From the NCBI GenBank assembly GCA_038087875.1, contig CM075987.1:27034001-27098000 (forward strand): DNA of 64,000 nucleotides. Reading direction: 5' to 3'. A model generated the notes under the pieces. The model searched no databases and was not told where the DNA came from. It saw only the letters and a list, made by a program, of their open reading frames with translations. Below, piece after piece: positions 2,736-54,377 of the stretch (position 1 is its first letter; the number at the start of each line of letters is the position of its first letter). The DNA comes from Malacoraja senta. Taxonomy: Eukaryota. The translations under genes and the position numbers were made by a program.

Positions 2736-2780
2736 TGGTTCATTTTCAAGTGGTCCAAATGATCCATGAACCTATGCATC

Positions 2781-2937
2781 TTCTTCTTCTTATCGAGTCC
2801 ACATCACAAGATTAGAAGTTGTTCAGCCAGAGCTGAACACACATCTCGGCATCTGCATACAATGGCGTCTGTCTTGTCGCTTCTTGTGTGTGGTGGTGGA
2901 AAGATTGGTGGAAGCAGGTCCGCGACGTGAACGCTCT
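2781..2937 (-). mobile_element. Short retroposon, family B: 5'-truncated HDV-like ribozyme head, stem-loop body, (GAA)n tail
   Basis: 12-bp TSD AACCT(A/T)TGCATC at 2769-2780 and 2938-2949. Minus strand starts AGA-GCG-TTCACGT-CGC-GGACCT-G-CTTCCA-CCAA-TCTTTCC and ends ...GATAAGAAGAAGAA. Confidence 0.75.
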
Positions 2938-2949
2938 AACCTTTGCATC

Positions 2950-3210
2950 ATAGTCACACAACGTGGAAACAGGCTCTTCGGCCCAACTTGCCGACACCGA
3001 TCAACATGTCCCAGTTACACACTAGCTTCATTTGGCCCATATCCTTCTAAACATTTCCTATCCAATTAACTGCCTAAATGTCTTATAAACATTGTGAAAG
3101 TGTCTGCCTCAACTACCTCCTCCGTCAGCTCATTCCATTTTACCCTCACCACCGTTGGTGTGAAAAAGTTGCCCCTCAATTTCCAATTAAATCTTTCCCC
3201 TCTCACCTTG
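2950..3210 (-). mobile_element. CR1 LINE 3' end
   Basis: Matches the CR1 3' ends at 34988-35420 and 62445-62893. Confidence 0.8.
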
Positions 3211-13511: not shown

Positions 13512-16500
13512 TCACCAATCAAGTCTCTGCGGCTTTCTAACCTCTCTCCCACACCTGGTCCGCACAGGCTCTGTGGTGGGGCCCTCTCTGCTGGGTGATG
13601 TTGTCACTGGTGGAGCTGGCTCTGGTGTAGGTGAATCTTCTCCCACCGGTGGCTCATCAGCATCGACTACCCCACTGTTGGTCTGCAGCGGCACCAAGTG
13701 ATGCCGGTTCCTCCTCAGTGTGCCCTGAGGCACCTGGACGATATAAGAGCGAGGGGTGTTGTGTGTAGATAGCACTGTGCCCTGGACTCGTGCATCGGTG
13801 ATCCACACATCCTCCCCAGGTACGAGTGGCTCCAGGTTTCTCGCTCCGTGCCTCTTGTCGAAGGATCTTGCGTCGTTCCTCCTCTTCTCCCTTTCTTTGG
13901 CCCCCAGCGCGTTGTAGTCAGGCAAAACTGGATTCAGCAGGGTTGGAAGGGCAGGAACTGTAGTGCGGAGGCGGCGCCCCATCAACAGCTCGGCCGGGCT
14001 ATAGCCGTTCTGTAGAGGGGTTGCTCTGTAGGCCAGCAATGCAAGATATGGGTCTGATGCCTTTGTTAGCAGGTTTTTCACGGTTTGTACAGCGCGTTCC
14101 GCCTCCCCATTGCTCTGAGGAAACTTGGGGCTGCTCGTGATGTGCACAAAGCCATACTCTGCTGCAAAGGCTTTAAAGTGGCTACCTGAGAACTGGGGCC
14201 CATTGTCACTTTTAAGAAATTCCCCAATTCCATGACGACAAAACATGGATTTCAGGTGCACCACCACATCTGTGGACCTTGTGTGTGTCAGCAGCGCAAC
14301 TTCCACATACCTTGAGAAATAATCTACTACTAGTAGATAAGTCTTGTTTTTCAGCGTGAACAGGTCAGCTCCCAAGGTTTGCCAAGGCCTGTCTGGCATC
14401 TCCGTTGGCATCAGCGGCTCTTTGACGTTCCTTCTCTCTTGGATGCAGGTTCTACATTTCAGCACCATGTCATTCAGCTGGCTGCTGAGTCCTGGCCACC
14501 ATACCGTCTGTTTGGCCCGGCCCCTGCACTTTGTCACCCCCAGGTGTCCCTCATGTAGTCTCTGCAGCACATCACCTTGTAAGGCTGTTGGGATGACGAG
14601 TCTCGTGCCCCGCAGCAGCAGCCCATCGTGCACAGTCAGCACTGCTCTATCAGCCCAGTAATGTCTCAGCACTCCCTGCAGTTGGCTTTTGTCGGGCCAC
14701 CCGTCTGTGCAGTACTCCATCAGTGCAGAGCATGTGCTGTCTGCCTTCAGGTGCTCACGTAGGCTGCTCAGATAATCTCCACTGACAGGAATGTTGCTGA
14801 TGACAGAGTCTACATAGATGTTGGTGTCCTCTAATAGGCTTATGTCTGTGTGTGCTCTTGCGGCTCTCAGAGGAGCACGAGATAAGGTGTCGGCTGTCCA
14901 CAGGCTTTTGCCAGGGACATGATTGACTGTATAGTTGTACCTCATGAGTCTCATCCTAAATCTTTGGATTCTTGGTGGGAGGTCATCCAAAGCTTTCCTT
15001 CCCAGCAGACTCACCAACGGCTTATGGTCAGTTTCCAGCTCGAATGGTCTTCCCAGGATGAAACAGCTGAACCTTTCACATGCCCACGTTGCAGCCAATG
15101 CCTCCTTCTCTACTTGAGCATAGCGCTGCTCTGTTGGCGTCATTGACCTGGACGCATATGCCACAGGTGACCACATGGCATCGCTCTTCTGCAGCAGGAC
15201 TGCCCCCAGGCCAAAGGAAGAAGCATCAGCAGAGATCTTTAAAGCACTGTTTGGGTTGTATAATGTGAGCACTGGTGTGGATGACAGCTCTGTTTTTAAC
15301 TGATCAAAGGCGGCCTGCTGCTCTGTCCCCCAGTACCAGTGGTTCTTCTTGGACAGCAGGTCTCGTAGCACTTTGTCTTTTTCAGCCAGGTTAGGCAAGA
15401 AGCGGCCCAGCTGATTGACCATGCCCAGAAAACTCCTGAGTTCGCTGACATTTTTGGGTGCATCCATCTCTTGTACTGCTCTCGTCTTCTCTGGATCTGG
15501 CTTCACTCCATCTGCTGAAATCACATGACCCAGGAATCTGACTGTGTGGCGTGTGAGCTCACATTTGTCCATGTTGAGCATAATGCCGGCCTTTTGTGCC
15601 TTCTTTAGCACCGCATGTAGCCGCACATCATGCTCCTCCTGCGTCTGTCCCCAGACCAGGATGTCGTCCATGTGACACAGTACCCCCTCCAGGCCACCGG
15701 TCACTTCTGTCACCATCATCCTTTGAAAGTGCTCGGGGGCTGATGCTATGCCAAAGGGTAGACGGTTAAAATAGTAGCGCCCATAAGGCGTGATGAAGGT
15801 GGTGTATTTGGCAGACTCTTTTGTCAATGGTACTTGCCAAAAGCCCATGTTGGCATCTAATTTGCTGAAGACTGTTGCGCCAGCTAGCATGCCCAGAGTG
15901 TGCTCGACAGAAGGCAGGATAAACTTTTCTCTGCATACTGATTCATTCATCATTGTGAAATCCACACAAATGCGAACATCACCTGCTTTTTTCGGCACCA
16001 CCACCATCCCGGCACACCAATCAGTCGGCTCCTCAATCTTGGTGATTACGCCCATCTTCTCCATACGGTCTATCTCCTCCTTCACTTTTCCCATAAGCGG
16101 CAGAGGGACTCTGCGTGGTGTGTGGAGAGAGAAGGGCACAGCCTCTGGCTTTAATTTAATTGAGTATGGCCTCAGAACAAGACCCAAGCCGCTACACAGC
16201 TTCGGATATTGTTGTTTCATTGATTCCATGGTGATGCTGTCAACCCTGCACACAAGCTGAAGCTGTTCTATGGCAGGCCTTCCCAACAGTGCAGTGTGCA
16301 GGTCTTTTACTACATAAATGTTCTCTATGGCTGTCTTTTTGCCTCTGCGCAGTGTTTCTCTGGCTACACCTAGGACAGAGAGTGCATTGCCCCCTGGCCC
16401 AAACAACGGGCGTGTCGGCACTGCCAGGCGCTTCACATCATGCCCCCCTGTAATGTCATGGTACACCTCGGCTGGCATGGCGGTGACATCAGCACCAGTG

Positions 16501-17447
16501 TCTATTTTAAAGCACACTTTTTTTTGTCTCACTTGTAGCTGCACCGTCCACGGGTCTTTTCCAGCATCCACGGCTCCCAGGAAAAAGCTCTCCTCTTCCT
16601 CTGTAGTGACAGCATTCAGAGATTTTGCACTGTTTCTGCACACTTTGCCATAATGTCCCTTTTTGCCACAGTTGTGACACACAGCATCTTTAGCAGGGCA
16701 TTCCCATTTTCCATGCGAGGGCATTTTTCCACATCTATAACAGGCCTTTGAACCTGGCTGTGGCCGTATATTAAGTTTATTTTTGCCTGGTGTTTGTGCT
16801 TGTGGCTGAGGCTTTGAGGGAAATTTGGGTTTTCTGTAGCTTTTAGCATGCACAGCATCAACATTTGAGCACTTGCTAGCACCGCCATTTTCTCCTCTTA
16901 AGTCAGACCGCTGTCGTCTAACTTCTTCAGACTGCCTTGTCTTTGTTATCGCAGTTCCAAGGGTTAGGTCTCTGTCTAGCTGTAGCTTTTCTGACAATGA
17001 GACGTTTCTCAGCCCGACCACTAACCTGTCGCGGATCAGCTCGTTCTGTAACTGTCCATAGTTGCAGTGTTCAGCTAATCCGTATAGAGCAGTGATGAAG
17101 GAATCCACCGTTTCTTCTGGCAGTTGCACACGCTGATTGAACTTGGCTCTTTCGTAGATTACATTCTTTTTAGGCACAAAAAATGCATCAAAGCCAGCCT
17201 TAACATCCGTGTACACCTTCCTCTCATCTGCAGTTAGCGTTAGCCCCTTTAGCACATCTTCGGCTTCATCACCCATGCAGTACACTAACGTGTTCACCTG
17301 GTTTTCTTCCGACGTTGCGTTTAAGTTGCTTGCAAGCCGAAAGCGGTCGAATCTCCTGATCCAACGCTCCCATTCTTGAGGCTTGGTAAAATCGAATGGC
17401 TCTGGAGGTTGTATTGTGAACGTAGCAGTTGGTGTAGGTTGCGCCAT
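13512..17447 (-). CDS. Gag-Pol polyprotein (Gag with two zinc knuckles, protease, RT, RNase H, integrase)
   Basis: 1311 aa without stops. CYRCGKMPSHGKWEC and CHNCGKKGHYGKVC knuckles; IDTGAD protease; RLPFG and HMDD RT; ADASSFGLGAVL, EKEALA, TDHKPL RNase H; HEGH..CRTC and ADLF, SDNGPQF, SNGEAER integrase. Order PR-RT-RH-IN is Gypsy. Confidence 0.97.
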   Translation of the reverse strand: MAQPTPTATFTIQPPEPFDFTKPQEWERWIRRFDRFRLASNLNATSEENQVNTLVYCMGDEAEDVLKGLTLTADERKVYTDVKAGFDAFFVPKKNVIYERAKFNQRVQLPEETVDSFITALYGLAEHCNYGQLQNELIRDRLVVGLRNVSLSEKLQLDRDLTLGTAITKTRQSEEVRRQRSDLRGENGGASKCSNVDAVHAKSYRKPKFPSKPQPQAQTPGKNKLNIRPQPGSKACYRCGKMPSHGKWECPAKDAVCHNCGKKGHYGKVCRNSAKSLNAVTTEEEESFFLGAVDAGKDPWTVQLQVRQKKVCFKIDTGADVTAMPAEVYHDITGGHDVKRLAVPTRPLFGPGGNALSVLGVARETLRRGKKTAIENIYVVKDLHTALLGRPAIEQLQLVCRVDSITMESMKQQYPKLCSGLGLVLRPYSIKLKPEAVPFSLHTPRRVPLPLMGKVKEEIDRMEKMGVITKIEEPTDWCAGMVVVPKKAGDVRICVDFTMMNESVCREKFILPSVEHTLGMLAGATVFSKLDANMGFWQVPLTKESAKYTTFITPYGRYYFNRLPFGIASAPEHFQRMMVTEVTGGLEGVLCHMDDILVWGQTQEEHDVRLHAVLKKAQKAGIMLNMDKCELTRHTVRFLGHVISADGVKPDPEKTRAVQEMDAPKNVSELRSFLGMVNQLGRFLPNLAEKDKVLRDLLSKKNHWYWGTEQQAAFDQLKTELSSTPVLTLYNPNSALKISADASSFGLGAVLLQKSDAMWSPVAYASRSMTPTEQRYAQVEKEALAATWACERFSCFILGRPFELETDHKPLVSLLGRKALDDLPPRIQRFRMRLMRYNYTVNHVPGKSLWTADTLSRAPLRAARAHTDISLLEDTNIYVDSVISNIPVSGDYLSSLREHLKADSTCSALMEYCTDGWPDKSQLQGVLRHYWADRAVLTVHDGLLLRGTRLVIPTALQGDVLQRLHEGHLGVTKCRGRAKQTVWWPGLSSQLNDMVLKCRTCIQERRNVKEPLMPTEMPDRPWQTLGADLFTLKNKTYLLVVDYFSRYVEVALLTHTRSTDVVVHLKSMFCRHGIGEFLKSDNGPQFSGSHFKAFAAEYGFVHITSSPKFPQSNGEAERAVQTVKNLLTKASDPYLALLAYRATPLQNGYSPAELLMGRRLRTTVPALPTLLNPVLPDYNALGAKEREKRRNDARSFDKRHGARNLEPLVPGEDVWITDARVQGTVLSTHNTPRSYIVQVPQGTLRRNRHHLVPLQTNSGVVDADEPPVGEDSPTPEPAPPVTTSPSREGPTTEPVRTRCGREVRKPQRLDW

Positions 17448-17526
17448 ATCTGCCAGCTCATCTCACCTTTCTCCGCCAAAACGATACACTTTCCTCTTCT
17501 TCTTTTTTTTTTTTTCGCTTACAAGT

Positions 17527-27563: not shown

Positions 27564-30500
27564 TTACTTCGGAGTCACGTGAGTGACTACGTGAAGAAGA
27601 GCCCGTCCAGCCGCACACGCGTCATATCGTACAGATGCATAGCGTGAGTGCCGATGTTTGGAGCGAGCAGAGCTCCTCCAAACCGGTAAGTAAAAAACCT
27701 GAAGGTAGGTTTTTACTTACGGTTTTCAGGCGATTTAAAAGACTTGTAGTAATAAAATACAAGTCATAATGAAGGAAATTGTGGAGGTGTACCGCAGAGT
27801 GCTCAGACAGACCGCGCACGGGTCTGTGAGTAGCGGGCGCCCTTTTAAAAACAATTTTTAAACGGTTACCGTTTAGCGCTATTAGATCGCATAGATAAGA
27901 GGTGGCCGTTAAAGAAGTCAGACCGGAGATCCCCGTTTCAGGTAACTAGTTGGTTATATTTAAAACCTAGTTGCAGGGCAATGCAGGGAATGTCTGGGGA
28001 ATGTCCAGGTTAACTATTTGGTCTAAATTAGAGCCAGCATATGAAGTGCCTAGGGAAGGTCCGGGCTTTGTGTTGGGCTAGAGAAGGCCAGTGTATGAAG
28101 TGTTAAAGAAGGAACTGCAGATGCTGGAAAATCGAAGGTACACAAAAATGCTGGAGAAACTCAGCGGGTGCAGCAGCATCTATGGAGCGAAGGAAATAGG
28201 CAACGTTTCGGGCCGAAACCCTTCTTCAGACTGATAGGGGGTGGGGAGAAGAAAGGAAAAAAGGAAAATAGGCGGAGGATGTAAATTCGCCCCTGCATGA
28301 AGAGGTTTATTTCATACAAAGATTCAAGTAAACGGATCATATGAGGCCTAGAGCCCAATACAGAGCCAAAGGACCAGAGTTGGCACAATATATTTAAGTT
28401 GTGGTTCCAAAAAGATGAGGGAACCATTGGGAGATAATTAAACTATGTCAATAAAATACTTACTCTCCCAGCAGCTCCAGGCTCTAACCAGGTATGAGCT
28501 GTCTACAAAAATAAACCCGCAGTATTGAGCATGATAAGCAAGTCTCAGCGGGGGAGAGGGTATTGAAATTACTGGTCAGGCGTTAAGGCTTTTTTGACCA
28601 AAGGTTGGATGGAGAGCATGTGTCTATATCACAACAAGGTTGAATTAGCACTCATGTGTAGTGCGCACTTTCAAATAATTGTTTTATAAAAGTGCTATAA
28701 AACCTAATATATACCCTAAGTTTGGGGGCTCTGTACACCATCTAATATTTAAATTGTCTATTAATCTGTTTTTAGAAAGATCTAGCCAAAAAAGGTATGA
28801 TCCTGTGTGATTAACAGATCAAATTAAGGCAGTTTTCCTACCAATATGTGGTGACTGGGGATAGTAAAGTATCAATTCTGTCTTTCCCATATGTGCGTAA
28901 TAGGCGCACTCCTCCTGAGATATGTGGAAGTTATAATATTCCACTAAGATCAGGGGTTAACAATTGCCATAGGCAAACCCAGAGGAGGAGGTCTGGTTCT
29001 GTAAGAAACATATTAAATGTTTTACACTTACAAGTTGGGGAAGATTACATTTCTTGCTAAAAAATGGCAAATTGATATTATACTGTACAGTATTGTGGGG
29101 TTTAGAATGTAGTTCTACCCATATTTGGTTTCTCTTACTAAGGTATTTGAAACCAGACACATATGTTCTCAAAATAAGAGAATATGTAGATTCAGACAAA
29201 ACATGAAATATTGTGGGAAAGAGATGATTAAGAAGTCAGTTCACCATTACCATCAATTAATGCCAAATATGTTATGAGAGCAAATAAGGATGGTGGGTGT
29301 AGATTTATTCTAGATCTGACAAATTTTAACTCTTTTTTGTACAGTATAAACAGTGGATAACATTTGTTAATGTTATGCAGCCAATTTCACAAATAAGCAT
29401 TTTTACTATGTGACTGTGTATGATATAATAGATATTTCTATTTTATCTGGATAAGCCAATTATGGCAATTTGAAGCATTGTATTCATGTTTAGTCTCAGC
29501 CTTGAGACTATTTGACAGGTTGTTGGATTTAATATTAGCTTTACTAAGAACTCAGTGCCATTTGGTAATGGTCTATTGCCATATTCTGATTGTAGGAAAC
29601 ATTCGGACTACAACAGAACCATGAGTGTTAGAATAAAGCTCACTTTAAAGATTTGTTGACCATCGAGATAAATCTAAAACAGTTTCCAAACACCGTTATT
29701 GATTATTTGGGTTCCATTATCAAATGAGAACACATGCTCATGATCCAATTGCAGGATTAAGGCTGCATTTAAGTGGAAGTTGTTCAAAGCTCATTATAGA
29801 GCATCAACCATTGTATAAAGGTCAATATAGAGCATTAATCCTTAATTAGGCATTTAATTGGAAGTGTATTAAGCTCATTATAGAGCACCAACCTTCAATT
29901 AGGCAGGAAACAAGCCTATTTTACAAATGTTGCTTATTTTCAGCTGTAGAATTTAGACTGCGGCATTATAAATGTTTATAGTAAGCATGGATAGAGGAAT
30001 GGATAATACAATTTATGGTAAGTTTCCCAGGCCATGTATTTGCCAGTTACATTTATTACTGGAATATTAATGAATCAGGAGTGTCTCAAATGCCTCCAGA
30101 GAGATTCTGGCTAAACACCTTCCATTATGCTACACACTAATGGTAGTGCTCTAAGTTGAGGTCATACTTATAAATATTTTCAGCTGTGGAGGTACATGGA
30201 ATATGGAGAAAGTACCTTTTGATCAAATAACAAGGGATCATTATGTAAGTTTTAGGAACATTTATGACCTAAAGCTTATTTGCTCTTGAATGAATGAATG
30301 AATGAATGAATGAAAACTTTATTGTCATTCAGATATACACCTATACCCAGTGCACCTAGAATGAAATTTCGTTTGCATTTGACTCTCCAGTTTTTTTTTT
30401 TTTAGAAGTGTCGATATTTAAAAAGTTCTAGCCTCGGTTTAATTGATTGTTCAATAATCTTATGGCCTGGGGGATGAAGCTGTTGCAGAACCTGGTTGTC

Positions 30501-33160
30501 CCGCTCTTCATGCTGCGGTACCTCCTCCCAGAGTTAAGCAGTATAAACAGTCCAAATTGTGGGTGTGTGGGGGCTTTGGTAATGCCCTTAGCTCTACTCA
30601 GACAGCGCTTGTACCCCATGTCCATGATGGAAGGAAGAGAAGTCCCAATGATTTTTTCCGCTGTCCTCACCACTCTCTGAAGGCACTTCCAGTCTGCAGC
30701 TGTACAGCTGCCGCACCACGTAGAGATACAGCCGGTCATGACCGACTCAATTGTGCTTCTGTAGAAAGTGGTGAGGATGGGAGGGTGGAGGTGTAAACTT
30801 CTCAACCTGCGGAGGAAGTACAACCGCTGATGTGCCCGTTTTGCCAGAGATGTAATGTTTGTGGACCAGTTTAAGGTGTCCGTTATATGCACCCCCAGGA
30901 ACTTGATGCTTTTCACCTGCTCCACTGCTGAGTTGTTGATGCAAAGTGGAGTGTGACTGGGCTGAATTTTCCTTCTGACATCGACTACAATCTCCTTGGT
31001 TTTGTTGCCATTTAGGAGAAGGTTGTTCCTGCTGCACCAGCTCACCAGCTGTTCCACCTCCTCTCTATATGCCTGGTCGTCGTTATTGCGGATGAGGCCC
31101 ACTACTGTTGTGTCATCCGCGTATTTGATGATATGGTTAGTGGTGGACCTGGCGACACAGTCATGTGTCATCAATGTAAAGAGCAGCGGACTCAGGACAC
31201 AGCCCTGAGGGGAGCCGATGCTCAGTTTGATGACAGAGGAGGTGTTCTTCCCCACCCGCACAGACTGGGGTCTTTCGGAAAGGAAATCCAGGATCCAGTT
31301 GCATAGTATGGTATTGAAACCTAGGGGTGCCAGTTTGCTCACCAGATGCTGGGGGATTATCGTGTTAAATGCTGAGCTGAAATCAACAAACAGCATCCGC
31401 ACTTGGGTATTCTTCTCCTCCAGGTGTTGTAGGCTCAGGTGGACTGCAGAGGAGATTGCATCCTCTGTGGAGCGGTTCGGGCGATAAGCAAACTGGAACG
31501 GGTCAAAACTGGAGGGGAGTTTAGAGACCATGTGCTGCTTAATAAGCCTCTCAAAGCACTTCATTATTATTGGTGTGAGTGCTACGGGGCGGTAATCATT
31601 TAGGCAGGTTATTGTAGACTTTTTGGGAACTGGTATGATGGTAGCTGTCTTGAAACATGATGGAACAATGGCCTGGTTCAAGGAGATGTTAAAAATGTCT
31701 GTCAGAACCAGAGCCAGCTGGTCGGCACATCCCCTGAGCAGACGCCCCGGTATGTTATCCGGTCCGGCTGCCTTTCGCTGGTCAATGCCCTCCAGGATTC
31801 TGCGGACTTCAGCAGTTTCAAAAGACAGTGCCTGTTCTCCTGGTTGTGGCTCTAATTTCCTCACTGTAGTGGTGTTCAGTGCTTCAAACCTGCCGAAATA
31901 ATTATTTAGTTCATTTAGAAAGTCTGTGTCATCCTTACAGGACATCTGAGGGGCCTTGTAGTTAGTTATGGCCCGGATGCCTTTCCACATGTTCCTGGTG
32001 TTGGTATTATCCTGGAAGAAATGCAATGTTGCATGTTTAAACATAGATTGAGACTACGGAATAGAACGTATGTCAATCATTCGAGTGGTTTAAGTCAGTA
32101 TCTTGTAATAGACTGGCTAATGTGATCTGGATCTGGTATTTACCAGAAATATTTAATTGGCAATCTACCTATGAGGTAGATTCAATATAGTTGAAGACTC
32201 AAAATTCATGTAAATCAATGATAATACAGAATGTATGTTGGATCGTGAGAAATTTAATAATATTATAGCACGATTGATGACTTGTTTGTATCCAGATTTT
32301 ACCACCAATTACCTAAATATATGTTATAAAGTCTGATACTGGGGCAGTAGTGGTGAATGATTTTTGCTGCATTGGGGTAAAATGTTTGTATACATTTTCC
32401 ATTTTTTCTCATTTAACAGTATATACAGAAGAGCAAACAGGATTCTGTTTCGGGAGTATTGGTGGTACTAGATTGGATCTACAAAACCATGGTACCCTGA
32501 GATGTTTAAAATGATCACAAAGCCTCTTATGATTTCCGAACAGAATTAATCTGTTTGTGCACTCTATAACTGATGATTCACATCCTTTACATAATCATAT
32601 TGGTTGTTGATTTACAGATTTTAAGGAGTGACAATTATCGGAAGAGGACTATCAGATTGTACTGTGGATATTATTGCAATCTGGAGGGATTTTACCCAGA
32701 AGTAGTACATTTCTTACATAAAGAAATGGGATATGTTTTGTTTAAGCAGACTATTACATATCACACTATAGACATATTAGTAGTGTTAGAGTTTTGTAAA
32801 CTCTTTATTTTATTAGCAGTTAAGCTATAATGCTATGAATACTGCAAGGAGTGCCGTTACTGCATATCTATGGAGGAATCAGAATAAAATGTTGTAGGGT
32901 TACACCCTTTGGTCTGCAAATTTATGAAAGGATTTTAATTCTAAAACCTCTTAGACACAAGTATACAATAATCTGGAATGTAAGAGATATGTTATATTGT
33001 TTTTGTTTATGGACTCCTATTACAGTGCTGTCCTTTCCTTGAATTATCATTAAGGAAGTCAAGTTCAGGGGACTGGTTTATGCACAGAGAGTGCAACTAT
33101 TGCAGAAAGTACGAAAATAAACATCAAACTTCAAACTGGTAAGTTCTCGTTTAATCTTAC
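27564..33160 (+). mobile_element. Degenerate DIRS-type (tyrosine recombinase) retrotransposon
   Basis: Relict motifs in DIRS order: RT NKDGGCRFILDLTNFN (29283-29330); methyltransferase-like DLFVSRFYHQLPKY (32279-32320); YR N-terminus LSYNAMNTARSAV, VGLHPLVCKFMKG, KYTIIWNV, AQRVQ (32820-33096). It splits a CR1 fragment at AATT. Confidence 0.8.
30428..32020 (-). CDS. Rex1/Babar LINE reverse transcriptase, 5'-truncated, stop-free; 3'UTR and (CATT)n tail extend to 30288
   Basis: [52 protein letters not shown] motifs; ends [10 protein letters not shown]. Confidence 0.92.
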
Positions 33161-40788: not shown

Positions 40789-42394
40789 CAGTGGCTTGCA
40801 AAAGTATTCATACCCCTTGAACTTTTCCACATTTTGTCACGTTGCAACCACAAACGTAAATGTATTTTATTGGGATTTTATGTGATAGACCAACACAAAG
40901 TGGCGCATAATTGTGAAGTGGAAGGAAAATGATACATGGTTTTCAAATTTTGTTACAAATAAAAAACTGAAAAGTGTGGCGTGCAAAAGTATTCAGCCCC
41001 CTTTACTCTGATACCCCTAAATAAAATCCAGTGCAACCAATTGCCTTCAGATGTCATCTAATTAGTAAATAGAGTCCACTTGTGTGTAATCTAATCTCAG
41101 TATAAATACAGCTGCTCTGTGAAGGCCTCAGAGGTTTGTTAGAGAACATTAGTGAACAAACAACATCATGAAGCCCAAGGAACACACCAGACAGGTCAGG
41201 GATAAAGTTGTGGAGAAGTTTGAAGCAGGGTTAGGATATAAAAAAATATCCCAAACTTTGAACATCTCATGGAGCACTGTTCAATCCATCATCCGAAAAT
41301 GGAAAGAGTATGGCACAACTGCAAACCTACCAAGACATGGCCGTCCACCTAAACTGACAGGCCGGGCAAGGAGAGCATTGATCAGAGAAGCAGCCAAGAG
41401 GCCCATGGTAACTCTGGAGGAGCTGCAGAGATCCACAGCTCAGGTGGGAGAATCTGTCCACAGGACAACTATTAGTCGTGCACTCCACAAATCGGACCTT
41501 TATGGAAGAGTGGCAAGAAGAAAGCCATTGTTGAAAAATGGCAAATTTGCAGTTTGCCACAAGCCATGTGGGGGACATAGAAAACATGTGGAGGAAGGTG
41601 CTCTGGTCAGATGAGACCAAAATTGAAGTTTTGGGCCTAAATACAAAACGCTATGTGTGGTGGAAACCTAACACTGCACATCACCCTGAACACACCATCC
41701 CCACTGTGAAACATGGTGGTGGCAGCATCATGCTGTGGGGATGCTTTTCTTCAGCAGGGACAGGGAAGCTGGTCAGAGTTGATGGGAAGATGGATGGAGC
41801 CAAATACAGGGCAATCTTGGAAGAAAACCTGTTAGAGTCTGCAAAAGACTTGAGACTGGGGCGGAGGTTCACCTTCCAGCAGGACAACGACCCTAAACAT
41901 ACAGCCAGAGCTACAATGGAATGGTTTAGATCAAAGCATATTCATGTGTTAGATTGGCCCAGTCAAAGTCCAGACCTAAATCCAATTGAGAATCTCTGGC
42001 AAGACTTGGAAATTGCTGTTCACAGACGCTCTCCATCCAATCTGACTGAGCTTAAGCTATTTTGCAAAGAAGAATGGGCAAAAATTTCAGTCTCTAGATG
42101 TGCAAAGCTGGTAGAGACATACCCCCAAAGACTTGCAGCTGTAATTGCAGCGAAAGGTGGTTCTACAAAGTATTGACTCAGGGTGGCTGAATACATTTGC
42201 ACGCGACACTTTTCAGTTTTTTATTTGTAAAACAATTTGAAAACCATGTATCATTTTCCTTCCACTTCACAATTATGCACCACTTTGTGTTGGTCTATCA
42301 CATAAAATCCCAATAAAATACATTTACGTTTGTGGTTGTAACGTGACGAAATGTGGAAAAGTTCAAGGGGTAAGAATACTTTTGCAAGCCACTG
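40789..42394 (+). mobile_element. Near full-length Tc1 transposon (IR/DR type), 1606 bp
   Basis: TA TSD; about 210-bp TIRs beginning CAGTGGCTTGCAAAAGTATTC, with an inner direct repeat TGCAAAAGTATTCA. Inserted into a CR1 3' end. Confidence 0.96.
41168..42176 (+). pseudogene. Tc1 DD34E transposase with one frameshift near 41535-41547
   Basis: ORFs 41168..41614 and 41538..42176: GRPPK linker, WSDETK, QQDNDPKH, SPDLNPIE; 34 residues between the second D and E. Confidence 0.93.
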
Positions 42395-43209
42395 TAAATG
42401 TTGGGATAGTCCCCACCTCAACTACCTCCTCTGGCAGCTTGTTCCATACACCCACCACCTTATGTGTGAAAGAGTCACCCCTCAGATTCCTATTAAATCT
42501 TTTCCCTTCACCTTAAACCTATGTCCTCTGGTCCTCGATTCATGAGAGGAATGCATCTACCCGATCTATTCCTCTCATGATTTGATACACCTCTACAATA
42601 TAACTCTATTGCTGCGCCACCGTGCCGCCCCAAGTAAGTTCTAACTAATCTTTGTAAAGCGTTTATTTGTCCTGGAAGGTGAAAAGGATGATAAGCAATG
42701 TTTATTCCACTGCAGATACTGATGTCCCTTTTATTCTAATGTGTATGTGAGCCAATTCATGTGTTTCTTGATGATTACATTTTTATTTAAATAATCTCAC
42801 AATCTTCTTGCTAATGAGATTTAGAACATTAGTTGCAGTTGTCCTTGCTCAATCTGTGAGACAAATTGGAATCGTTAAAAAGATGGTTAGTCACACATGA
42901 GAGAGGTGGGGGGGGGGGTGTGGGGTAGCTGCGATATTTAAATCCCATTCCCAACAAAATAGAATTGTGTCCTTGCAATGAAGTGATGGCTGGATGAATT
43001 TTGTGAAGAGGTCGGAAGAGAGGGATAGCCACGAGAGATGCGCGAAGAACAAGGTGAATAGGGAGCACTTCTGAACAGAGTATCACGCGTATCATAAGGT
43101 CATAAGTGATAGAAGCAGAATTAGGCCAATCGGTCCATCGAGTCTGCTCCGCCATTCAATCATGGCTGATCTATCTCTCCCTCCTAACCCCATTCTCCTG
43201 CCTTCTCCC

Positions 43210-43352
43210 TTCTTCTTCCCCTTGCGTGTGGCGTGCACAGCCTAATGTTGTAGGACAACTTGTTCTATTTGATCTTATTTGATTGTGCACGCCAGGTTGA
43301 TTGCATTCGTCGAAACAGGGCGGACCACGTGAAGGTTGCAATCTCCCACCCC
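43210..43352 (-). mobile_element. Short retroposon, family A copy 1 (HDV-like ribozyme head, (GAA)n tail)
   Basis: 12-bp TSD CTGCCTTCTCCC (43198-43209, 43353-43364) inside a CR1 3'UTR; near-identical to 53876-54018. Confidence 0.9.
43299..43352 (-). ncRNA. Predicted minimal HDV/CPEB3-like self-cleaving ribozyme (54 nt)
   Basis: GGGGUGG-GA-GAUUGCA-ACC-UUCACGU-GGU-CCGCCCU-GU-UUCGA-CGAA-UGCAAUC parses as P1, J1/2, P2, P3, L3, P3', P1', P1.1, mini-P4, J4/2, P2'. Confidence 0.82.
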
Positions 43353-44098
43353 CTGCCTTCTCCCCATAACCCCCGACACCCGTACTAATCAAGAATCTAT
43401 CTATCTCTGCCTTCAAAATACCCATTGACTTGGACCTCCACAGCCTTCTGTGCCAAAGATGTCCACAGATTCACCACCCTCTGACTAAAGATATTCCTCC
43501 TCATCTCCTTCCTAAAGGTACGTCCTTTAATTCTGAGGCTGTGACCTCTAGTTCTATTTCCGCGCTGCATCTCAAAGCTAAACTAAACTAAATGTAAAAT
43601 CCCAGCTCCCTTGGGCCACACACGATTCCAGCAGGGTAAAACCATCATCTATTACATTGGTGTGGTACATCATAATACAACGTTGGTTGTCTCTCCTGTG
43701 GAAAGGCGATTGCTATTATTGCACTCCTGCTGTGAACAGGAGTCGAAATCACATCCAGAAGAATAAATACACTTGTTTAGGAATTATTCTTTGAGAGAGC
43801 GGTGTGTGGAATCGATGCAATCATGGCTTCTGGGATGTAAACACAAACAGATGTGGCGTGCTCTGTACATCACTCCAAGGCCACACAAAGATGGGTCTCT
43901 TAGAAGAGTCGGGTTCAACTGGTCTGGCAGGATAGTCGAACATAAAACAAAAAGAACAGAAAATGCTGCAAGTTCTGACAAAGTGTCCAGGACCCAAAGT
44001 ATTAACTCCTTCTCTTTCCACAGATGCTGCCGAACCTGCTGGGTGCTTCCGCAATTTTTACCTTTTACAGACGGGTATTATCCTGGCCAGTCATGGCA

Positions 44099-51500: not shown

Positions 51501-53875
51501 GAGAATGGATCAATACATGAATTTAGCATCTCGGTTATTAATACGATCAATAAGTCAAGAAGATGCATTTCTAAACCTCTCTCTCAGCTGTCTACCACTG
51601 ATACAGCTGATATGATGGTTGGAAAGGAAAAGCAGTGGCGATGAAAATCACTACAAAAAGGAAATGACTTGAGATTCTGTTGTCAGTTTAGACGCTCATG
51701 CTATCTTCATGTTCATAAGCTCTCGGAGCAGAATTAGACACCCTCGTAAATCTGACAATATCTTTTTCTGCATTTACGCGATCTATTCCTCTCCTAATTT
51801 TGTAATCCTTTATAAGTTTGTTAGTGATAGGAGCAGAATTAAGCCATTCGGCCCATCAAGTCCACCCTGCCATTCAATCTACCTCTCCCTCCTAACCCCA
51901 TTCTCCTGCCTTCTCCCCATAACCCCTGACACCCGCACTAATCAAGGATCTGTATATCTTCATCTTAAAAATATCCTTTGACTTCTGTGGCAATGAATTC
52001 CACAGATTCAATACACAATTTATGTCCATAAATCATAGGAACAGAATGAAGCCATTCGACCATAGAGTCTACTCCGCCATTCAAGAGAGAGCTAGATAGG
52101 GCTCTTAAAGATAGCGGAGTCAGGGGATATGGGGAAAAGGCAGGAATGGGGTACTGATTGGGGATGATCAGCCATGATCACATTGAATGGCGGTGCTGGC
52201 TCGAAGGGCCGAATGGCCTACTCCTGCACCTATTGTCTATCTCTAAACTAATCTAAACCCTTAGCGTATGATTGTGTTCTTGCACTCTGTGCCAGTGAGC
52301 AATGTGCCCTTCAATGAGCAGTGAGCAATGAGCTCCTGCACCTATTGTCTATTGTCTATTGTCAATCATGGCTGATCTATCTCTCCCTCCGAACCCCATT
52401 CTCTCGCCTTCTCCCCATAACCCCTGGCACCCGAACTAATGAAGAATCTATCACTTTGTGTCTATCTTTGGTATAAACCATATTCAGCAGTTGTTTCGAA
52501 ATAAATCAGGAGAATCCACCATTTAAGAATGTTTACCCAGAGTGTAGACAGTACATACTGTGCAGAAATATTACTCTTATTTTTTTTATCAATTGCATAT
52601 CAAGTATGCAAACAGGCCATTTTAGTCCCTGTAGGGACATCTGATTATACAGATCAAATGCACGTTAATTATCCAATAGCTGTCACATTTAATCATCTTT
52701 CTCAATCTTTCGTACTGAAATGTGTGAATGGAAATGACACACTGGCAGGCAGCAATGCCTTGGGACATTCAAAACATTCTGAAGACAGACACAAAACGCT
52801 GGAGTAACTCAGCGGGTGAGGCAGCATCTATGGAGCGAAGGAATAGGTGACGTTTCGGGTCGAGAGAGTATCTCTCGACCCGAAACCCGCTGAGTATCTC
52901 CAGCATTTTTGGCTACCTTCTTCAGACTGAGAGTCAGGGGAGAGGGAGACGAGAGATATAAAAGGGTACGGTGTGAAAACGACAGATCAAAGGGGAAGTT
53001 GCACAAGGAAATGTAGAATGGTTTATTGTCAGCTGAGGGGAAGGTGACAACAGTCAGTAATATTTAATCTGTTGGACAGTGGATCTATGTAGGAAGGAAG
53101 ATGCTGGTTTAAACCGAAGATAGACACGAAAAGCTTGAGTAACTCAGCGGGTCAGGAAGCATCTCTGGAGAAGAGGAATGGGCGACGTTCCGGGTCGAGA
53201 CCCTTCTTCAGAACTGGTCGGAGAACTAGGATGGGGGAGGGATGGAGAGAGAGAGGGAAAGCAAGAGTTATTTGAAGTTAGAGACATCAATATTCGTACC
53301 GCTGGGTTGTAAGCTGCCCAGGCGAAATCAAGACATCCTTCTGGTCGAGAGAATGGAAAATATTTTTTCTCAGGAGGCCTTAGCAAGTGTTTTAGAAAGT
53401 CCAGGAGCTTGCTAGGTGATTAGCACGGACTCTACAGCTCTGCCAAGGAAAAATGCCAAGAGTTCGATCTTGAGAAAAGGCAGCAACACTTCTTTCTCTG
53501 TGCTAATGAAATGCTATTTCATCTTTCTGCTACATTCCTCCAGAGTTGCCGTTCCCCTGTATTCAACAAGCAATCAACCATCACACATGAGGAGTCCCAT
53601 GTCTGTGCAGCATAAAAGAAGATTCATTTTCAACACATATGCTGGGACCGGAACTGCTGATCTACTGAAAGGATTGAAATTTGAATGTGTGTGAGGGGTT
53701 TGGATGAAGGTGAGAATAGTATAATGTTCATAAGTCATAGGAGCAGAATTAGGCCATTCGGCCCATCAAGTCTACTCCGCCATTCAATCATGGCTGATCT
53801 ATCTCTCCCGCCTAACCCCATTCTCCTGCCTTCTCCCCATAACCCCTGACACCCGCACTAATCAAGAATCTATCT

Positions 53876-54018
53876 TCTTCTTCTTCTTGCGTATGGCGTG
53901 CACAGCCTAAAGTTGCAGGACAACTTGTTCTATTTGATCTTATTTGATTGTGCACGCCAGGGTTGATTGCATTTGTCGAAACAGGGTGGACCACGTGAAG
54001 GTTGCAATCTCCCACCCC
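53876..54018 (-). mobile_element. Short retroposon, family A copy 2 (HDV-like ribozyme head, (GAA)n tail)
   Basis: 12-bp TSD AAGAATCTATCT (53864-53875, 54019-54030) inside a CR1 3'UTR. Confidence 0.9.
53965..54018 (-). ncRNA. Predicted minimal HDV/CPEB3-like ribozyme (54 nt)
   Basis: GGGGUGG-GA-GAUUGCA-ACC-UUCACGU-GGU-CCACCCU-GU-UUCGA-CAAA-UGCAAUC. Confidence 0.82.
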
Positions 54019-54377
54019 AAGAATCTATCTATCTCTGCCTTAAAAATACCCAATGACTTGGGTATACCCTCCACAGTCTTCTGTGGCAATGAATTCTGCA
54101 GATTCACCACCCTCCGACTAAAGAAATACCTCCTAATCTCCTTCCTAAAGAAACGTCCTTTAATTCTGAGTATGACATCTGATCCCAGACTCTCCCACAT
54201 GTGGAAACATCCTCTCCACATCCACTCTATCCAGGCCTGTAATACATCACCACAGAAAGAAGGGGGCTATTTTCTCAGCTCTCTCTTGCTTTAATTAGTG
54301 TGCCTATATTTCAGATGAGTTGGCCTTTGCTTAGTTTACTGACATTAGGCTTGAAATCACTCCAGACTCCAGAGTAC

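What the first reader, a model, noticed from the sequence alone, without database searches (positions are those of the whole stretch)
43210..43352. Ribozyme-headed short retroposon: a 143-bp element that starts with a minimal HDV/CPEB3-like ribozyme
Seen: on the minus strand the first 54 nt parse fully as a nested double pseudoknot. P1 is GGGGUGG/CCGCCCU with a G1-U wobble, P2 is GAUUGCA/UGCAAUC, P3 is ACC/GGU, L3 is UUCACGU, P4 is almost absent (GU-UUCG-A), and J4/2 is CGAA with the candidate catalytic C. G1, the predicted cleavage position, abuts the 12-bp TSD. The rest is a stem (UGGCGUGCACA/UGUGCACGCCA) closed just before a (GAA)n tail, and there is no clear tRNA-like A box. Known: L3 UUCACGU and J4/2 CGAA match the mammalian CPEB3 ribozyme as I recall it, and HDV-like ribozymes process the 5' ends of R2, RTE and L1Tc/Ingi elements and of R2 short internally deleted elements. 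Inference: a non-autonomous element that cuts its own 5' end out of read-through transcripts instead of using a Pol III promoter, mobilised by an RTE- or Ingi/Vingi-type LINE. I know of no description of this family in cartilaginous fish, but I cannot search.
Basis: partly seen in the sequence, partly recalled or inferred. Interest (0 to 1): 0.92.

Follow-up and report, generated by a model that had tools for sequence, protein, structure and literature searches.

The report
Ribozyme-headed short retroposon family
A 143-base mobile element present in thousands of copies starts with a stripped-down self-cutting RNA of the kind known from the mammalian CPEB3 gene, and a 3-kb jumping gene in the same genome carries the full-size version.

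Summary
Window 43352..43210 (minus strand) is one copy of a young retroposon family. The genome holds 5,708 copies of its 54-nt head and 8,224 copies of its body. The copy has 12-bp target-site duplications and a (GAA)n tail.

The head parses as P1 7/7, P2 7/7 and P3 3/3 pairs. Its L3, the G1.U36 wobble and the J4/2 CGAA match the Rfam CPEB3 consensus. Five nucleotides stand in place of P4.

Searching the genome with the CPEB3 model gave 39 matches above Rfam's cut-off, up to 64 bits. These head a 3.15-kb RTE-like LINE and other short elements.

Across these families 18 of 27 pairs show compensatory changes. Pairing is 90.8%, against 37-43% when partners are slid.

In 40 copies picked by their 3' body, 37 start within 2 nt of G1 and none extends upstream.

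Self-cleavage itself is untested. The LINE partner is inferred from the ribozyme type and a shared tail.

New variant of a known kind: a P4-less CPEB3-type ribozyme heading a high-copy element without a Pol III head. The most novel reading is that the mammalian CPEB3 ribozyme descends from this retrotransposon lineage.

The parts
43353..43364 (-). 5' copy of the 12-bp target-site duplication gggagaaggcag, abutting G1
   Evidence: The uninterrupted paralogous host repeat has the 12-mer once (L045 3' flank).
43299..43352 (-). 54-nt CPEB3-type HDV-like ribozyme head lacking P4. The predicted cleavage site is 5' of G1 (43352).
   Evidence: Parse gives 7/7, 7/7 and 3/3 pairs. RF00622 scores 18.3 bits. 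The model built without this family scores 20.4 bits, against 9.1 for the next hit in the window. Covariation across families.
43346..43352 (-). P1 5' strand GGGGTGG
43337..43343 (-). P2 5' strand GATTGCA. J1/2 GA lies at 43345-43344.
43324..43336 (-). P3 ACC, L3 TTCACGT, P3' GGT. It holds U20, U21, C22 and A23CGU26 at the positions numbered for CPEB3.
   Evidence: Numbering from PMC4836649 and 10.1101/2022.09.22.508989.
43317..43323 (-). P1 3' strand CCGCCCT. U36 is the wobble partner of G1.
43310..43316 (-). G37 U38 (P1.1 strand), then the 5-nt linker TTCGA where other families have P4
43306..43309 (-). J4/2 CGAA. C44 (43309) aligns with the catalytic C57 of CPEB3.
43299..43305 (-). P2 3' strand TGCAATC
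43230..43294 (-). 3' stem-loop: 11-bp stem TGGCGTGCACA/TGTGCACGCCA around a 43-nt loop. This body is specific to the family.
   Evidence: Predicted in both MFE and centroid. No LINE sharing it was found.
43210..43229 (-). 3' end CACGCAAG plus the (GAA)n tail. In this copy the tail reads GGGGAAGAAGAA; 38-40 of 40 other copies have AA where it has GG.
43198..43209 (-). 3' copy of the target-site duplication
53875..54018 (-). Second copy of the same family, with 2 mismatches in the head and the duplication gatagattctt. It sits in another copy of the same host repeat.

Best explanation
The element is a non-autonomous non-LTR retroposon without a Pol III head. Its first 54 nt are a minimal (P4-less) HDV-like ribozyme of the CPEB3 type.

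Proposed cycle:
1. A source copy is transcribed as part of a longer host transcript (inferred).
2. The head folds into the nested double pseudoknot. With C44 as the catalytic cytosine it cuts the phosphodiester 5' of G1 (inferred from likeness; not assayed).
3. An HDV-like ribozyme lies wholly downstream of its cut. The released RNA therefore keeps the ribozyme, and every new copy inherits it.
4. The 3' stem-loop and the terminal ..ACG(C/A)AAG(AAG)n are taken by the endonuclease-reverse transcriptase of an RTE-like LINE (inferred). The best candidate is the 3.15-kb family found here. It starts at G1 of a full-size CPEB3-like ribozyme and ends ..ACACGAAAAG(AAG)n.
5. Target-primed reverse transcription copies the short RNA to its 5' end. 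This gives insertions that begin at G1 and carry 8-15-bp duplications (shown).
For: Fold under selection:
- Twelve ribozymes from six families align without trouble.
- 90.8% of 284 cells are paired, against 37.4-43.3% when partners are slid by 1-3 columns.
- 18 of 27 pairs change on both sides.
- 0 of 500 shuffles reach the observed pairing, compensatory counts or covariation score.
- Against the LINE's ribozyme, this family changes P1 positions 5-7, most of P2 and all three P3 pairs. L3, G37, U38 and the C-N-A-A of J4/2 stay the same.

Independent recognition:
- Among 4,227 Rfam families, CPEB3 is the best match to the head.
- A covariance model built without any sequence of this family ranks the two window copies at 20.9 and 20.4 bits. 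The next hit in 64 kb (both strands, filters off) scores 9.1 bits.

CPEB3-type features at the same numbering: G1.U36, U20 and G25, U21, C22, A23CGU26, G37 U38 with no J1.1/4, and a 4-nt J4/2.

5' ends:
- 38 of 40 scored genome hits start at query position 1 and 2 at position 2.
- 30 of 32 copies have duplications of 7 bp or more. Of these, 20 abut G1 exactly and 5 are 1 nt away.
- In 40 copies chosen by the 3' body, the start is at position 1 in 29, position 2 in 7, position 3 in 1, and positions 11 and 20 in 1 each. One has an internal deletion with the head still present. None shares sequence upstream.
- In contigs of two other coded organisms the likeness also stops at 43352, with heterogeneous flanks (53 and 36 contigs).

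Partner LINE:
- Five copies are 97.3-98.2% alike over about 3,140 nt.
- One has an open 940-codon frame with Exo_endo_phos and RVT_1.
- Three of the five have duplications abutting GGGGATC (read by eye).
- The genome holds 11 heads and 177 3' ends.
- An older subfamily of the short element ends CACACGAAAGAAGAAG, closer to the LINE's end.

P4 is dispensable in known minimal HDV-like ribozymes, which self-cleave in vitro (10.1101/2023.06.13.544163, passages).

No tRNA and no B-box-like site.
Against: - No cleavage assay and no RNA data exist. No listed run is on record as RNA, and all are kept as contigs.
- Rfam scores this copy 18.3 bits, under the cut-off of 35, and a 2.5-kb scan missed it.
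- The nested MFE is no better than shuffles (z -0.07), though that energy model cannot see pseudoknots.
- Variation inside the family is mostly G-to-A at CpG (positions 32, 42, 45) plus G8A. It does not test the structure.
- Natural P4-less HDV-like ribozymes shown active so far are from phages and metagenomes, according to the preprint passages read.
- The LINE and the short element share only about 14 nt of low-complexity 3' end. They share no body sequence.
- A precise 5' end could in principle come from a transcription start.
- The covariation structure was drawn from these same sequences, which favours it over slid versions (caveat in the tool text).
Confidence: 0.72

Rival explanations
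1. The element is a short internally deleted derivative (SIDE-like) of an RTE lineage that carried exactly this head and 3' end. It was not assembled independently. The mechanism of 5' processing would be the same; only the origin differs.
For: R2 SIDEs and NARTc show this route for ribozyme-headed LINEs (PMC3414825 and PMC3383444; search listing and start of abstracts). The head is of the same type as the LINE's, and the tails are alike.
Against: Two pattern scans looked for this head followed by something else, and for this body preceded by something else. They found only mutated or indel-bearing copies of the short element (30 and 15 hits). BLAST of the element against five full LINE copies found nothing inside the LINE. 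All three helices differ from the LINE's. A parent that is extinct or diverged cannot be excluded.
Confidence: 0.25
2. The head keeps the fold but no longer cleaves. It is kept as a binding site or 5' signal for the LINE protein. The 5' end is then set by a transcription start (Pol II or an unrecognised Pol III promoter).
For: No activity data exist. The element has no T4 run, so Pol III could read through it. P4 is missing. Copies with 1-2 nt missing at the 5' end are common (8 of 40).
Against: The catalytic C and the whole L3/J4/2 core are kept in all six families while the helices change. That is what catalysis requires, not merely a shape. The LINE, which needs no such head to be copied, starts at the same G1. 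No tRNA or B box is present. In another family one copy starts at G1 and ends in poly(A) with a 9-bp duplication (L113). This fits an RNA cut at G1 out of a longer Pol II transcript.
Confidence: 0.08
3. The double-pseudoknot parse is a chance resemblance in an ordinary repeat.
For: The Rfam score is below the cut-off. The nested fold energy is unremarkable.
Against: Covariation across families. Recognition by a model trained without this family. 39 genome matches to RF00622 above the cut-off, in related elements.
Confidence: 0.01

Closest known systems
Mammalian CPEB3 ribozyme (Rfam RF00622)
   Same: - Collinear through nt 38: 7-bp P1 with G1.U36, 7-bp P2, 3-bp P3.
- L3 UUCACGU, with U20, C22 and A23CGU26.
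- G37 U38 with no J1.1/4, and J4/2 CGAA.
- Sister families in this genome score 36-64 bits against the model.
   Different: - P4 (18 nt in CPEB3) is replaced by 5 nt.
- The helix sequences of P1 (positions 5-7), P2 and P3 all differ.
- It is multicopy and heads a mobile element; CPEB3 is a single intronic locus.
- The score of 18.3 bits is under the cut-off.
- The CPEB3 ribozyme is stated not to have been found outside mammals (PMC8233481, passage).
HDV-like ribozymes at the 5' ends of RTE, R2, R4 and L1Tc LINEs
   Same: The ribozyme is the first thing in the element, and the cleavage site coincides with the 5' junction. PMC3774820 says so for RTE, R4 and L1 (passage). The LINE found here fits this directly.
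   Different: Here the bearer is a 143-nt element with no coding capacity. The ribozyme is of the CPEB3 sequence type and lacks P4. Ruminski et al. 2011, the primary RTE paper, was not held. What it says about vertebrates could not be checked.
R2 SIDEs and NARTc (non-autonomous elements that keep the LINE's 5' ribozyme)
   Same: A short non-coding element with an HDV-like ribozyme at the 5' end and LINE-type 3' recognition (PMC3414825, PMC3383444; listing and abstracts).
   Different: Those are recognisable deletion derivatives sharing both ends with their LINE. R2 SIDEs are also site-specific. This family is dispersed (TSDs at unrelated sites) and has thousands of copies. Its helices and body match no LINE found here.
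Minimal HDV-like ribozymes (drz-Mtgn, theta ribozymes)
   Same: They lack the P4 domain yet keep the double pseudoknot and the catalytic C. Examples self-cleave in vitro (10.1101/2023.06.13.544163, passages).
   Different: Those come from gut phages and metagenomes, and many lie beside tRNAs. These are in an animal genome at the head of retroposons, and they are clearly derived from a P4-bearing CPEB3-type ribozyme.
Classical SINEs (tRNA, 7SL or 5S head with a LINE-derived tail)
   Same: Short, high copy number, target-site duplications, and a tail like that of a co-resident LINE.
   Different: There is no Pol III-type head. A ribozyme, not a promoter, would define the 5' end.

Membership tests
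HDV-like ribozymes (structure-defined) | Nested double pseudoknot: P1 and P2 interleaved, P3 inside P1, L3 and J4/2 single-stranded | tested here: met
   Parse gives 7/7, 7/7 and 3/3 pairs. 90.8% of cells paired, 18 of 27 pairs compensatory, 0 of 500 shuffles.
HDV-like ribozymes (structure-defined) | Cleavage site at the first nucleotide of P1, with a G.U wobble | tested here: met
   G1 pairs with U36. Copies and duplications start at G1. Feature as stated in PMC4908430 and PMC4836649. The position is predicted, not assayed.
HDV-like ribozymes (structure-defined) | Catalytic cytosine at the start of J4/2 | tested here: met
   C44 aligns with the consensus C of CGAA. The column is C in 11 of 12 aligned ribozymes; the exception is a decayed copy.
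HDV-like ribozymes (structure-defined) | Short J1/2 spacer between P1 and P2 | tested here: met
   GA, 2 nt. Zero or one nt was inactive or poor in one tested ribozyme (PMC4908430, passage).
HDV-like ribozymes (structure-defined) | Mg2+-dependent self-scission | not testable with these tools
   No assay is possible. No raw RNA reads were available.
Rfam CPEB3_ribozyme RF00622 | Score at or above the gathering score of 35 bits | tested here: not met
   18.3 bits, E 0.012 in 186 nt. Not listed in a 2.5-kb scan. Related families in the genome do meet it: 39 of 60 listed matches.
Rfam CPEB3_ribozyme RF00622 | CPEB3-specific core: 7-nt L3 with ACGU, P1.1 from C22-G37 plus U21-U38, no J1.1/4 | tested here: met
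   Sequence set against the features listed.
Rfam CPEB3_ribozyme RF00622 | P4 hairpin | tested here: not met
   Only TTCGA lies between U38 and C44.
Minimal (P4-less) HDV-like ribozymes | P4 domain absent with the rest of the fold kept | tested here: met
   Definition.
Classical SINE | Internal Pol III promoter head (tRNA, 7SL or 5S derived) | tested here: not met
   ARAGORN finds 0 genes. No match to the B-box consensus (recalled from memory) with up to 2 mismatches inside the element. No Rfam tRNA, 7SL or 5S match.
SIDE-type internal deletion derivative | Both ends identical or nearly so to a co-resident LINE | tested here: not met
   No similarity to the LINE beyond the terminal ACG-AAG(AAG)n. 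All helices differ. No other parent was found; an unsampled parent is not excluded.
RTE clade (for the candidate partner LINE) | About 3.2 kb, a single ORF with APE-type endonuclease then reverse transcriptase, and a short simple-repeat tail | tested here: met
   Relatives at 50-63% identity lie on contigs of about 3.1-3.4 kb in many animals.
RTE clade (for the candidate partner LINE) | Phylogenetic placement of the RT among named RTE elements | not tested
   No named reference set was at hand.

The most novel reading that the evidence does not exclude
The mammalian CPEB3 ribozyme is not a mammalian invention. It would be a domesticated copy of a ribozyme that heads an old vertebrate lineage of RTE-like retrotransposons and their short dependants.

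- This genome holds at least six families with that ribozyme type.
- One low-copy family (five copies) matches the Rfam CPEB3 consensus through most of P1, P3, L3, J4/2 and the P4 stem CAGAUUCU/GAAUCUG, a helix that the other families spell differently.
- Its P2 differs from the consensus by one compensated base pair.

The element under study would then be the minimal, P4-less end of the same radiation. It would also be the first natural P4-less HDV-like ribozyme family in an animal genome.
Probability: 0.5. Interest if true: 0.9.

Novelty: new variant of a known kind. Interest (0 to 1): 0.8.

Why it matters
1. It is a clean vertebrate-type example of a high-copy short retroposon whose 5' end is set by RNA catalysis, not by a Pol III promoter. 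That widens what counts as a SINE-like element and how such elements should be searched for.

2. It shows that nature has trimmed a CPEB3-type ribozyme to 54 nt by dropping P4. There are thousands of genomic copies and a second, independent minimal family. This gives ready-made natural variants for structure-function work.

3. [quoted passage not shown] Here the same Rfam model finds 39 matches above its cut-off, at the heads of mobile elements. The named relatives of two of this genome's LINE proteins are fishes and invertebrates. If the host is confirmed as non-mammalian, this supplies the missing outgroups. It also makes the origin of the only HDV-like ribozyme in the human genome testable.

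Tried and rejected
- **Rfam on 2.5 kb around the element:** no HDV-like hit. Only the 186-nt scan, which uses laxer filters, listed it.
- **Nested MFE of the 143-nt RNA:** no better than shuffles. Uninformative for a pseudoknot.
- **Within-family covariation:** rejected as a test. The copies are dead on arrival, and the frequent changes are CpG decay.
- **Search for a LINE with this family's own head or body:** patterns using IUPAC 'not' codes found only damaged copies of the short element.
- **RNA evidence:** no RNA holder is listed. All 24 runs are kept as contigs. The one laying of four runs could show presence and boundaries only, not RNA ends.
- **Searching the genome with my own covariance model:** Not pursued by any other route.
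- **Host identity:** the atlas look-up and two protein searches gave chordate, teleost and invertebrate names but no close named relative. 'Cartilaginous fish' stays unverified.
- **Earlier findings of this scan:** three look-ups, nothing held.
- **Papers not held:** Ruminski 2011, Webb 2009 and Webb and Luptak 2011. What they say about vertebrate RTE ribozymes or likeness to CPEB3 could not be checked.
- **Helix 4:** I wrote A23-U38/C24-G37. This is not the published P1.1 register (C22-G37, U21-U38). Both are invariant here, so nothing hangs on it.
- **Automatic TSD calls:** those for L017 and L019 lie 16-21 nt past the tail and may be spurious. L014/L015 and L006/L018 are duplicated loci, so the 32 copies are 30 independent insertions.

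Full report
**What is at the coordinates**

Read on the minus strand, window 43352..43210 is 143 nt. It is bounded by two copies of gggagaaggcag, at 43364-43353 and 43209-43198. The element sits inside another repeat. An uninterrupted paralogue of that repeat, in the 3' flank of locus L045, reads GGTTATGGGGAGAAGGCAGGAGAATGG with the 12-mer only once.

- P1 GGGGTGG/CCGCCCT, with G1 opposite U36.
- J1/2 GA.
- P2 GATTGCA/TGCAATC.
- P3 ACC/GGT.
- L3 TTCACGT.
- G37 U38, then five nucleotides TTCGA where a P4 hairpin would be, then J4/2 CGAA.

A mechanical parse gives 7/7, 7/7 and 3/3 pairs. The second half is an 11-bp stem around a 43-nt loop, followed by CACGCAAG and a (GAA)n tail.

**Is it a family, and where do copies start**

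The own genome (1.94 Gb) gave 483 candidates, of which 40 were scored. All are 95-100% identical. Of the 40, 38 begin at query position 1 and 2 at position 2.

Exhaustive pattern counts give 5,708 heads with up to 3 mismatches and 8,224 bodies with up to 2 mismatches. The reversed control patterns gave none.

In the 30 fetched loci there are 32 copies. Two pairs are duplicated loci, so these are 30 independent insertions. Thirty of the 32 have duplications of 7 bp or more at unrelated sites. Of those 30, 20 abut G1 exactly and 5 are one base away.

That sample favours full-length copies. I therefore took the first 40 genomic places that match a 31-nt stretch of the 3' body exactly. In these, the likeness starts:
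- at position 1 in 29;
- at position 2 in 7;
- at position 3 in 1;
- at positions 11 and 20 in one each.

The fortieth copy has an internal deletion with its head still present. None of the 40 shares sequence upstream of G1.

Near-identical words of the element are held by runs of at least ten coded organisms in 12 studies. In contigs of two of them the likeness again stops at 43352 with heterogeneous flanks (53 and 36 contigs).

**Is the head a ribozyme fold**

Rfam lists nothing of the HDV type in a 2.5-kb scan. In a 186-nt scan the best of 4,227 families is CPEB3_ribozyme, at 18.3 bits and E 0.012. That is well under the gathering score of 35. The printed alignment shows L3, CCCUGU and CGAAU identical to the consensus.

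The decisive result came from searching the whole genome with RF00622. There were 60 listed matches, 39 above the cut-off, and the best scored 64.2 bits. Reading them sorts them into families, which I label A to E. The finding's family is F.

Families A-D have a P4 hairpin, spelled differently in each. Family E, like F, has only five nucleotides there (TTCCA).

Twelve ribozymes from the six families align cleanly. On that alignment:
- 90.8% of 284 cells form standard pairs, against 37.4-43.3% when the 3' partners are slid by 1-3 columns.
- 18 of 27 pairs carry changes on both sides.
- 0 of 500 shuffles reach the observed pairing, compensatory counts or covariation score.

F differs from A at P1 positions 5-7, through most of P2 and at all three P3 pairs. 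Pairing is kept each time. L3, G37, U38 and the C-N-A-A of J4/2 stay the same.

The structure was drawn from these same sequences, which the tool warns favours it over slid versions. As an independent check I built a covariance model from families A-E only. I scanned the whole window on both strands with filters off. The two F copies score 20.9 and 20.4 bits, and the next unrelated hit scores 9.1.

Variation inside F does not test the fold. It is G8A in J1/2 plus G-to-A at the CpGs of positions 32, 42 and 45. In the contigs, position 45 also reads U.

**How close to CPEB3**

Published descriptions of the CPEB3 ribozyme give:
- the G1.U36 wobble;
- the U20.G25 pair at the base of P3;
- a weak P1.1 made of one G-C and one U-U pair;
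- no J1.1/4;
- a 7-nt L3 containing A23CGU26;
- a 4-nt J4/2 beginning with the catalytic C57.

These come from passages of PMC4836649 and 10.1101/2022.09.22.508989.

The element has every one of these at the same numbering up to nt 38. Its C44 aligns with C57. What it lacks is P4.

Natural HDV-like ribozymes without P4 are known and self-cleave in vitro. The preprint I read places them in gut phages and metagenomes (10.1101/2023.06.13.544163, passages).

**The likely partner**

Family A is a 3.15-kb element.
- Five copies are 97.3-98.2% alike over about 3,140 nt.
- One of the five has an uninterrupted 940-codon frame with Exo_endo_phos, Exo_endo_phos_2 and RVT_1. The other four are interrupted.
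- The element starts with GGGGATC, the G1 of its ribozyme. In three of the five the duplication abuts it directly. One starts two bases in, and one has no duplication I could see (read by eye).
- It ends ..GACACGAAAAGAAGAAGAA.
- The genome holds 11 heads and 177 3' ends of it, at least 100 of the latter exact. This is the usual picture of a young, 5'-truncating LINE.
- Its protein has relatives at 50-63% identity on contigs of about 3.1-3.4 kb. The named ones come from amphioxus, sea urchins, teleosts, Anolis and insects.

By architecture this is an RTE-type LINE. I did not place it on a tree.

The short element ends ..CCATACGCAAGAAGAAG in most copies. An older subfamily ends ..CACACGAAAGAAGAAG. 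So the two share the ribozyme type and about 14 terminal bases, and nothing else. Pattern scans for a LINE carrying F's own head or body found only damaged F copies.

The partner assignment is therefore an inference. Whether F arose by internal deletion of an unsampled LINE is left open.

**Mechanism**

Shown:
- the anatomy;
- the family, its size and its youth;
- the duplications and the start at G1;
- selection for the double pseudoknot across families;
- the absence of a tRNA-type head;
- a co-resident LINE with the same kind of head and tail.

Inferred:
- A source copy is read through from a host transcript.
- The head cuts 5' of G1, with C44 as the catalytic base.
- The released RNA keeps the whole ribozyme. 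A review notes this property as favouring spread by retrotransposition (PMC8256844, passage).
- The LINE's protein takes the 3' end and copies the RNA to its 5' end.

One fossil fits cleavage out of a longer Pol II transcript. Copy L113 of family C starts at G1, runs about 250 nt, ends in A10 and is flanked by ATAGTTGT.

**Comparison with what is known**

HDV-like ribozymes at the 5' ends of R2, R4, L1Tc and RTE elements are established, and so are ribozyme-headed non-autonomous derivatives (R2 SIDEs, NARTc). I saw this in a passage of PMC3774820 and in listings and abstracts.

Three things are new here:
- the sequence type, CPEB3-like;
- the loss of P4 in two families;
- a dispersed family of more than 5,700 copies whose helices and body match no LINE found.

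Searches of the held library found no description of this:
- 'HDV-like', ribozyme, shark: 2 papers, both irrelevant.
- Ribozyme with chondrichthyan terms: all 15 papers listed (of 1,184 that hold 3 of the 6 terms) have zero occurrences of 'ribozyme'.
- 'CPEB3 ribozyme' with RTE and retrotransposon, with origin terms, or with 'transposable': 2, 9 and 6 papers. None proposes a transposon origin in the listings and passages I read.

The library lacks most subscription papers. The key RTE paper and two reviews were not held.

**The wider lead**

[quoted passage not shown] Here family C has five copies, 83-88% alike.

Against the Rfam consensus, family C differs as follows:
- P2 by one compensated pair (GCAGGA/UCCUGC against GCAGAA/UUCUGC).
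- L3 by one base.
- In copy L060 (the same place as L114), the P4 stems read CAGATTCT/GAATCTG, as in the consensus.

P4 is the helix the other families spell differently. This argues for common descent over convergence.

The host was not identified. Named relatives of two of its LINE proteins are teleosts and invertebrates at 47-82% identity. This argues against a mammal but does not prove a cartilaginous fish.

**Verdict**

It is a new variant of a known kind, with a lead on the origin of the CPEB3 ribozyme that deserves follow-up.

Noticed in passing
L041:99-3241 (also L042-L045); outside the window: A 3.15-kb RTE-like LINE that starts at G1 of a full-size CPEB3-like ribozyme (64 bits against RF00622). 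Its first ATG lies about 30 nt after the ribozyme. It ends ACACGAAAAG(AAG)n. The genome holds 11 heads and 177 3' ends.
   Followed up: yes
L047, L049, L051, L057, L060 (= L110-L114): A five-copy family whose ribozyme is nearly the Rfam CPEB3 consensus, including the P4 stems. Copy L113 starts at G1, ends in A10 and has the duplication ATAGTTGT. It looks like a poly(A)-type retrocopy of a ribozyme-cut transcript.
   Followed up: partly
L050, L053, L059, L061 and the family above: Copies of two families share only about 25-35 nt after the ribozyme, ending ..ACCAAC, before they diverge. These may be roughly 90-100-nt ribozyme-plus-stub retroposons. Their 3' ends and duplications were not worked out.
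   Followed up: no
window 2779-2950 (-): A relic of the second P4-less family (about 180 nt, tail GATAAG(AAG)n). Its P1 5' strand is missing or mutated. It scores 25.5-29.4 bits with my models. The genome holds 52 heads of this family with up to 3 mismatches.
   Followed up: partly
G000:C2:2650544-3776396: Several copies of that second family, clustered within about 1.1 Mb, read GGACCCT in the P1 3' strand. This gives a clean 6-bp P1 with G1.U and U5-A. Most other copies read GGCCCCT, which mispairs U5 or shifts the register.
   Followed up: no
window 43353-43460 and 54019-54060 with 53830-53874: Both window copies of the element landed in copies of one and the same host repeat (..agatagattcttgattagt.cgggtgtc.ggggttatggggagaaggcagga..), at sites about 40 bp apart in the repeat.
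   Followed up: no
the base before G1 in 32 copies: T precedes G1 in 16 of 32 copies (G 6, C 5, A 5). In several copies it lies outside the duplication. It could be a target preference or an added base.
   Followed up: no
window 13512-17462 (-), 30428-32053 (-), 41156-42176 (+): Long open frames that, read by eye, look like an LTR-retrotransposon pol (1,316 aa), a LINE reverse transcriptase and a Tc1-like transposase. The reverse transcriptase's named relatives are teleost. The window is largely mobile elements, and no host gene was recognised.
   Followed up: partly
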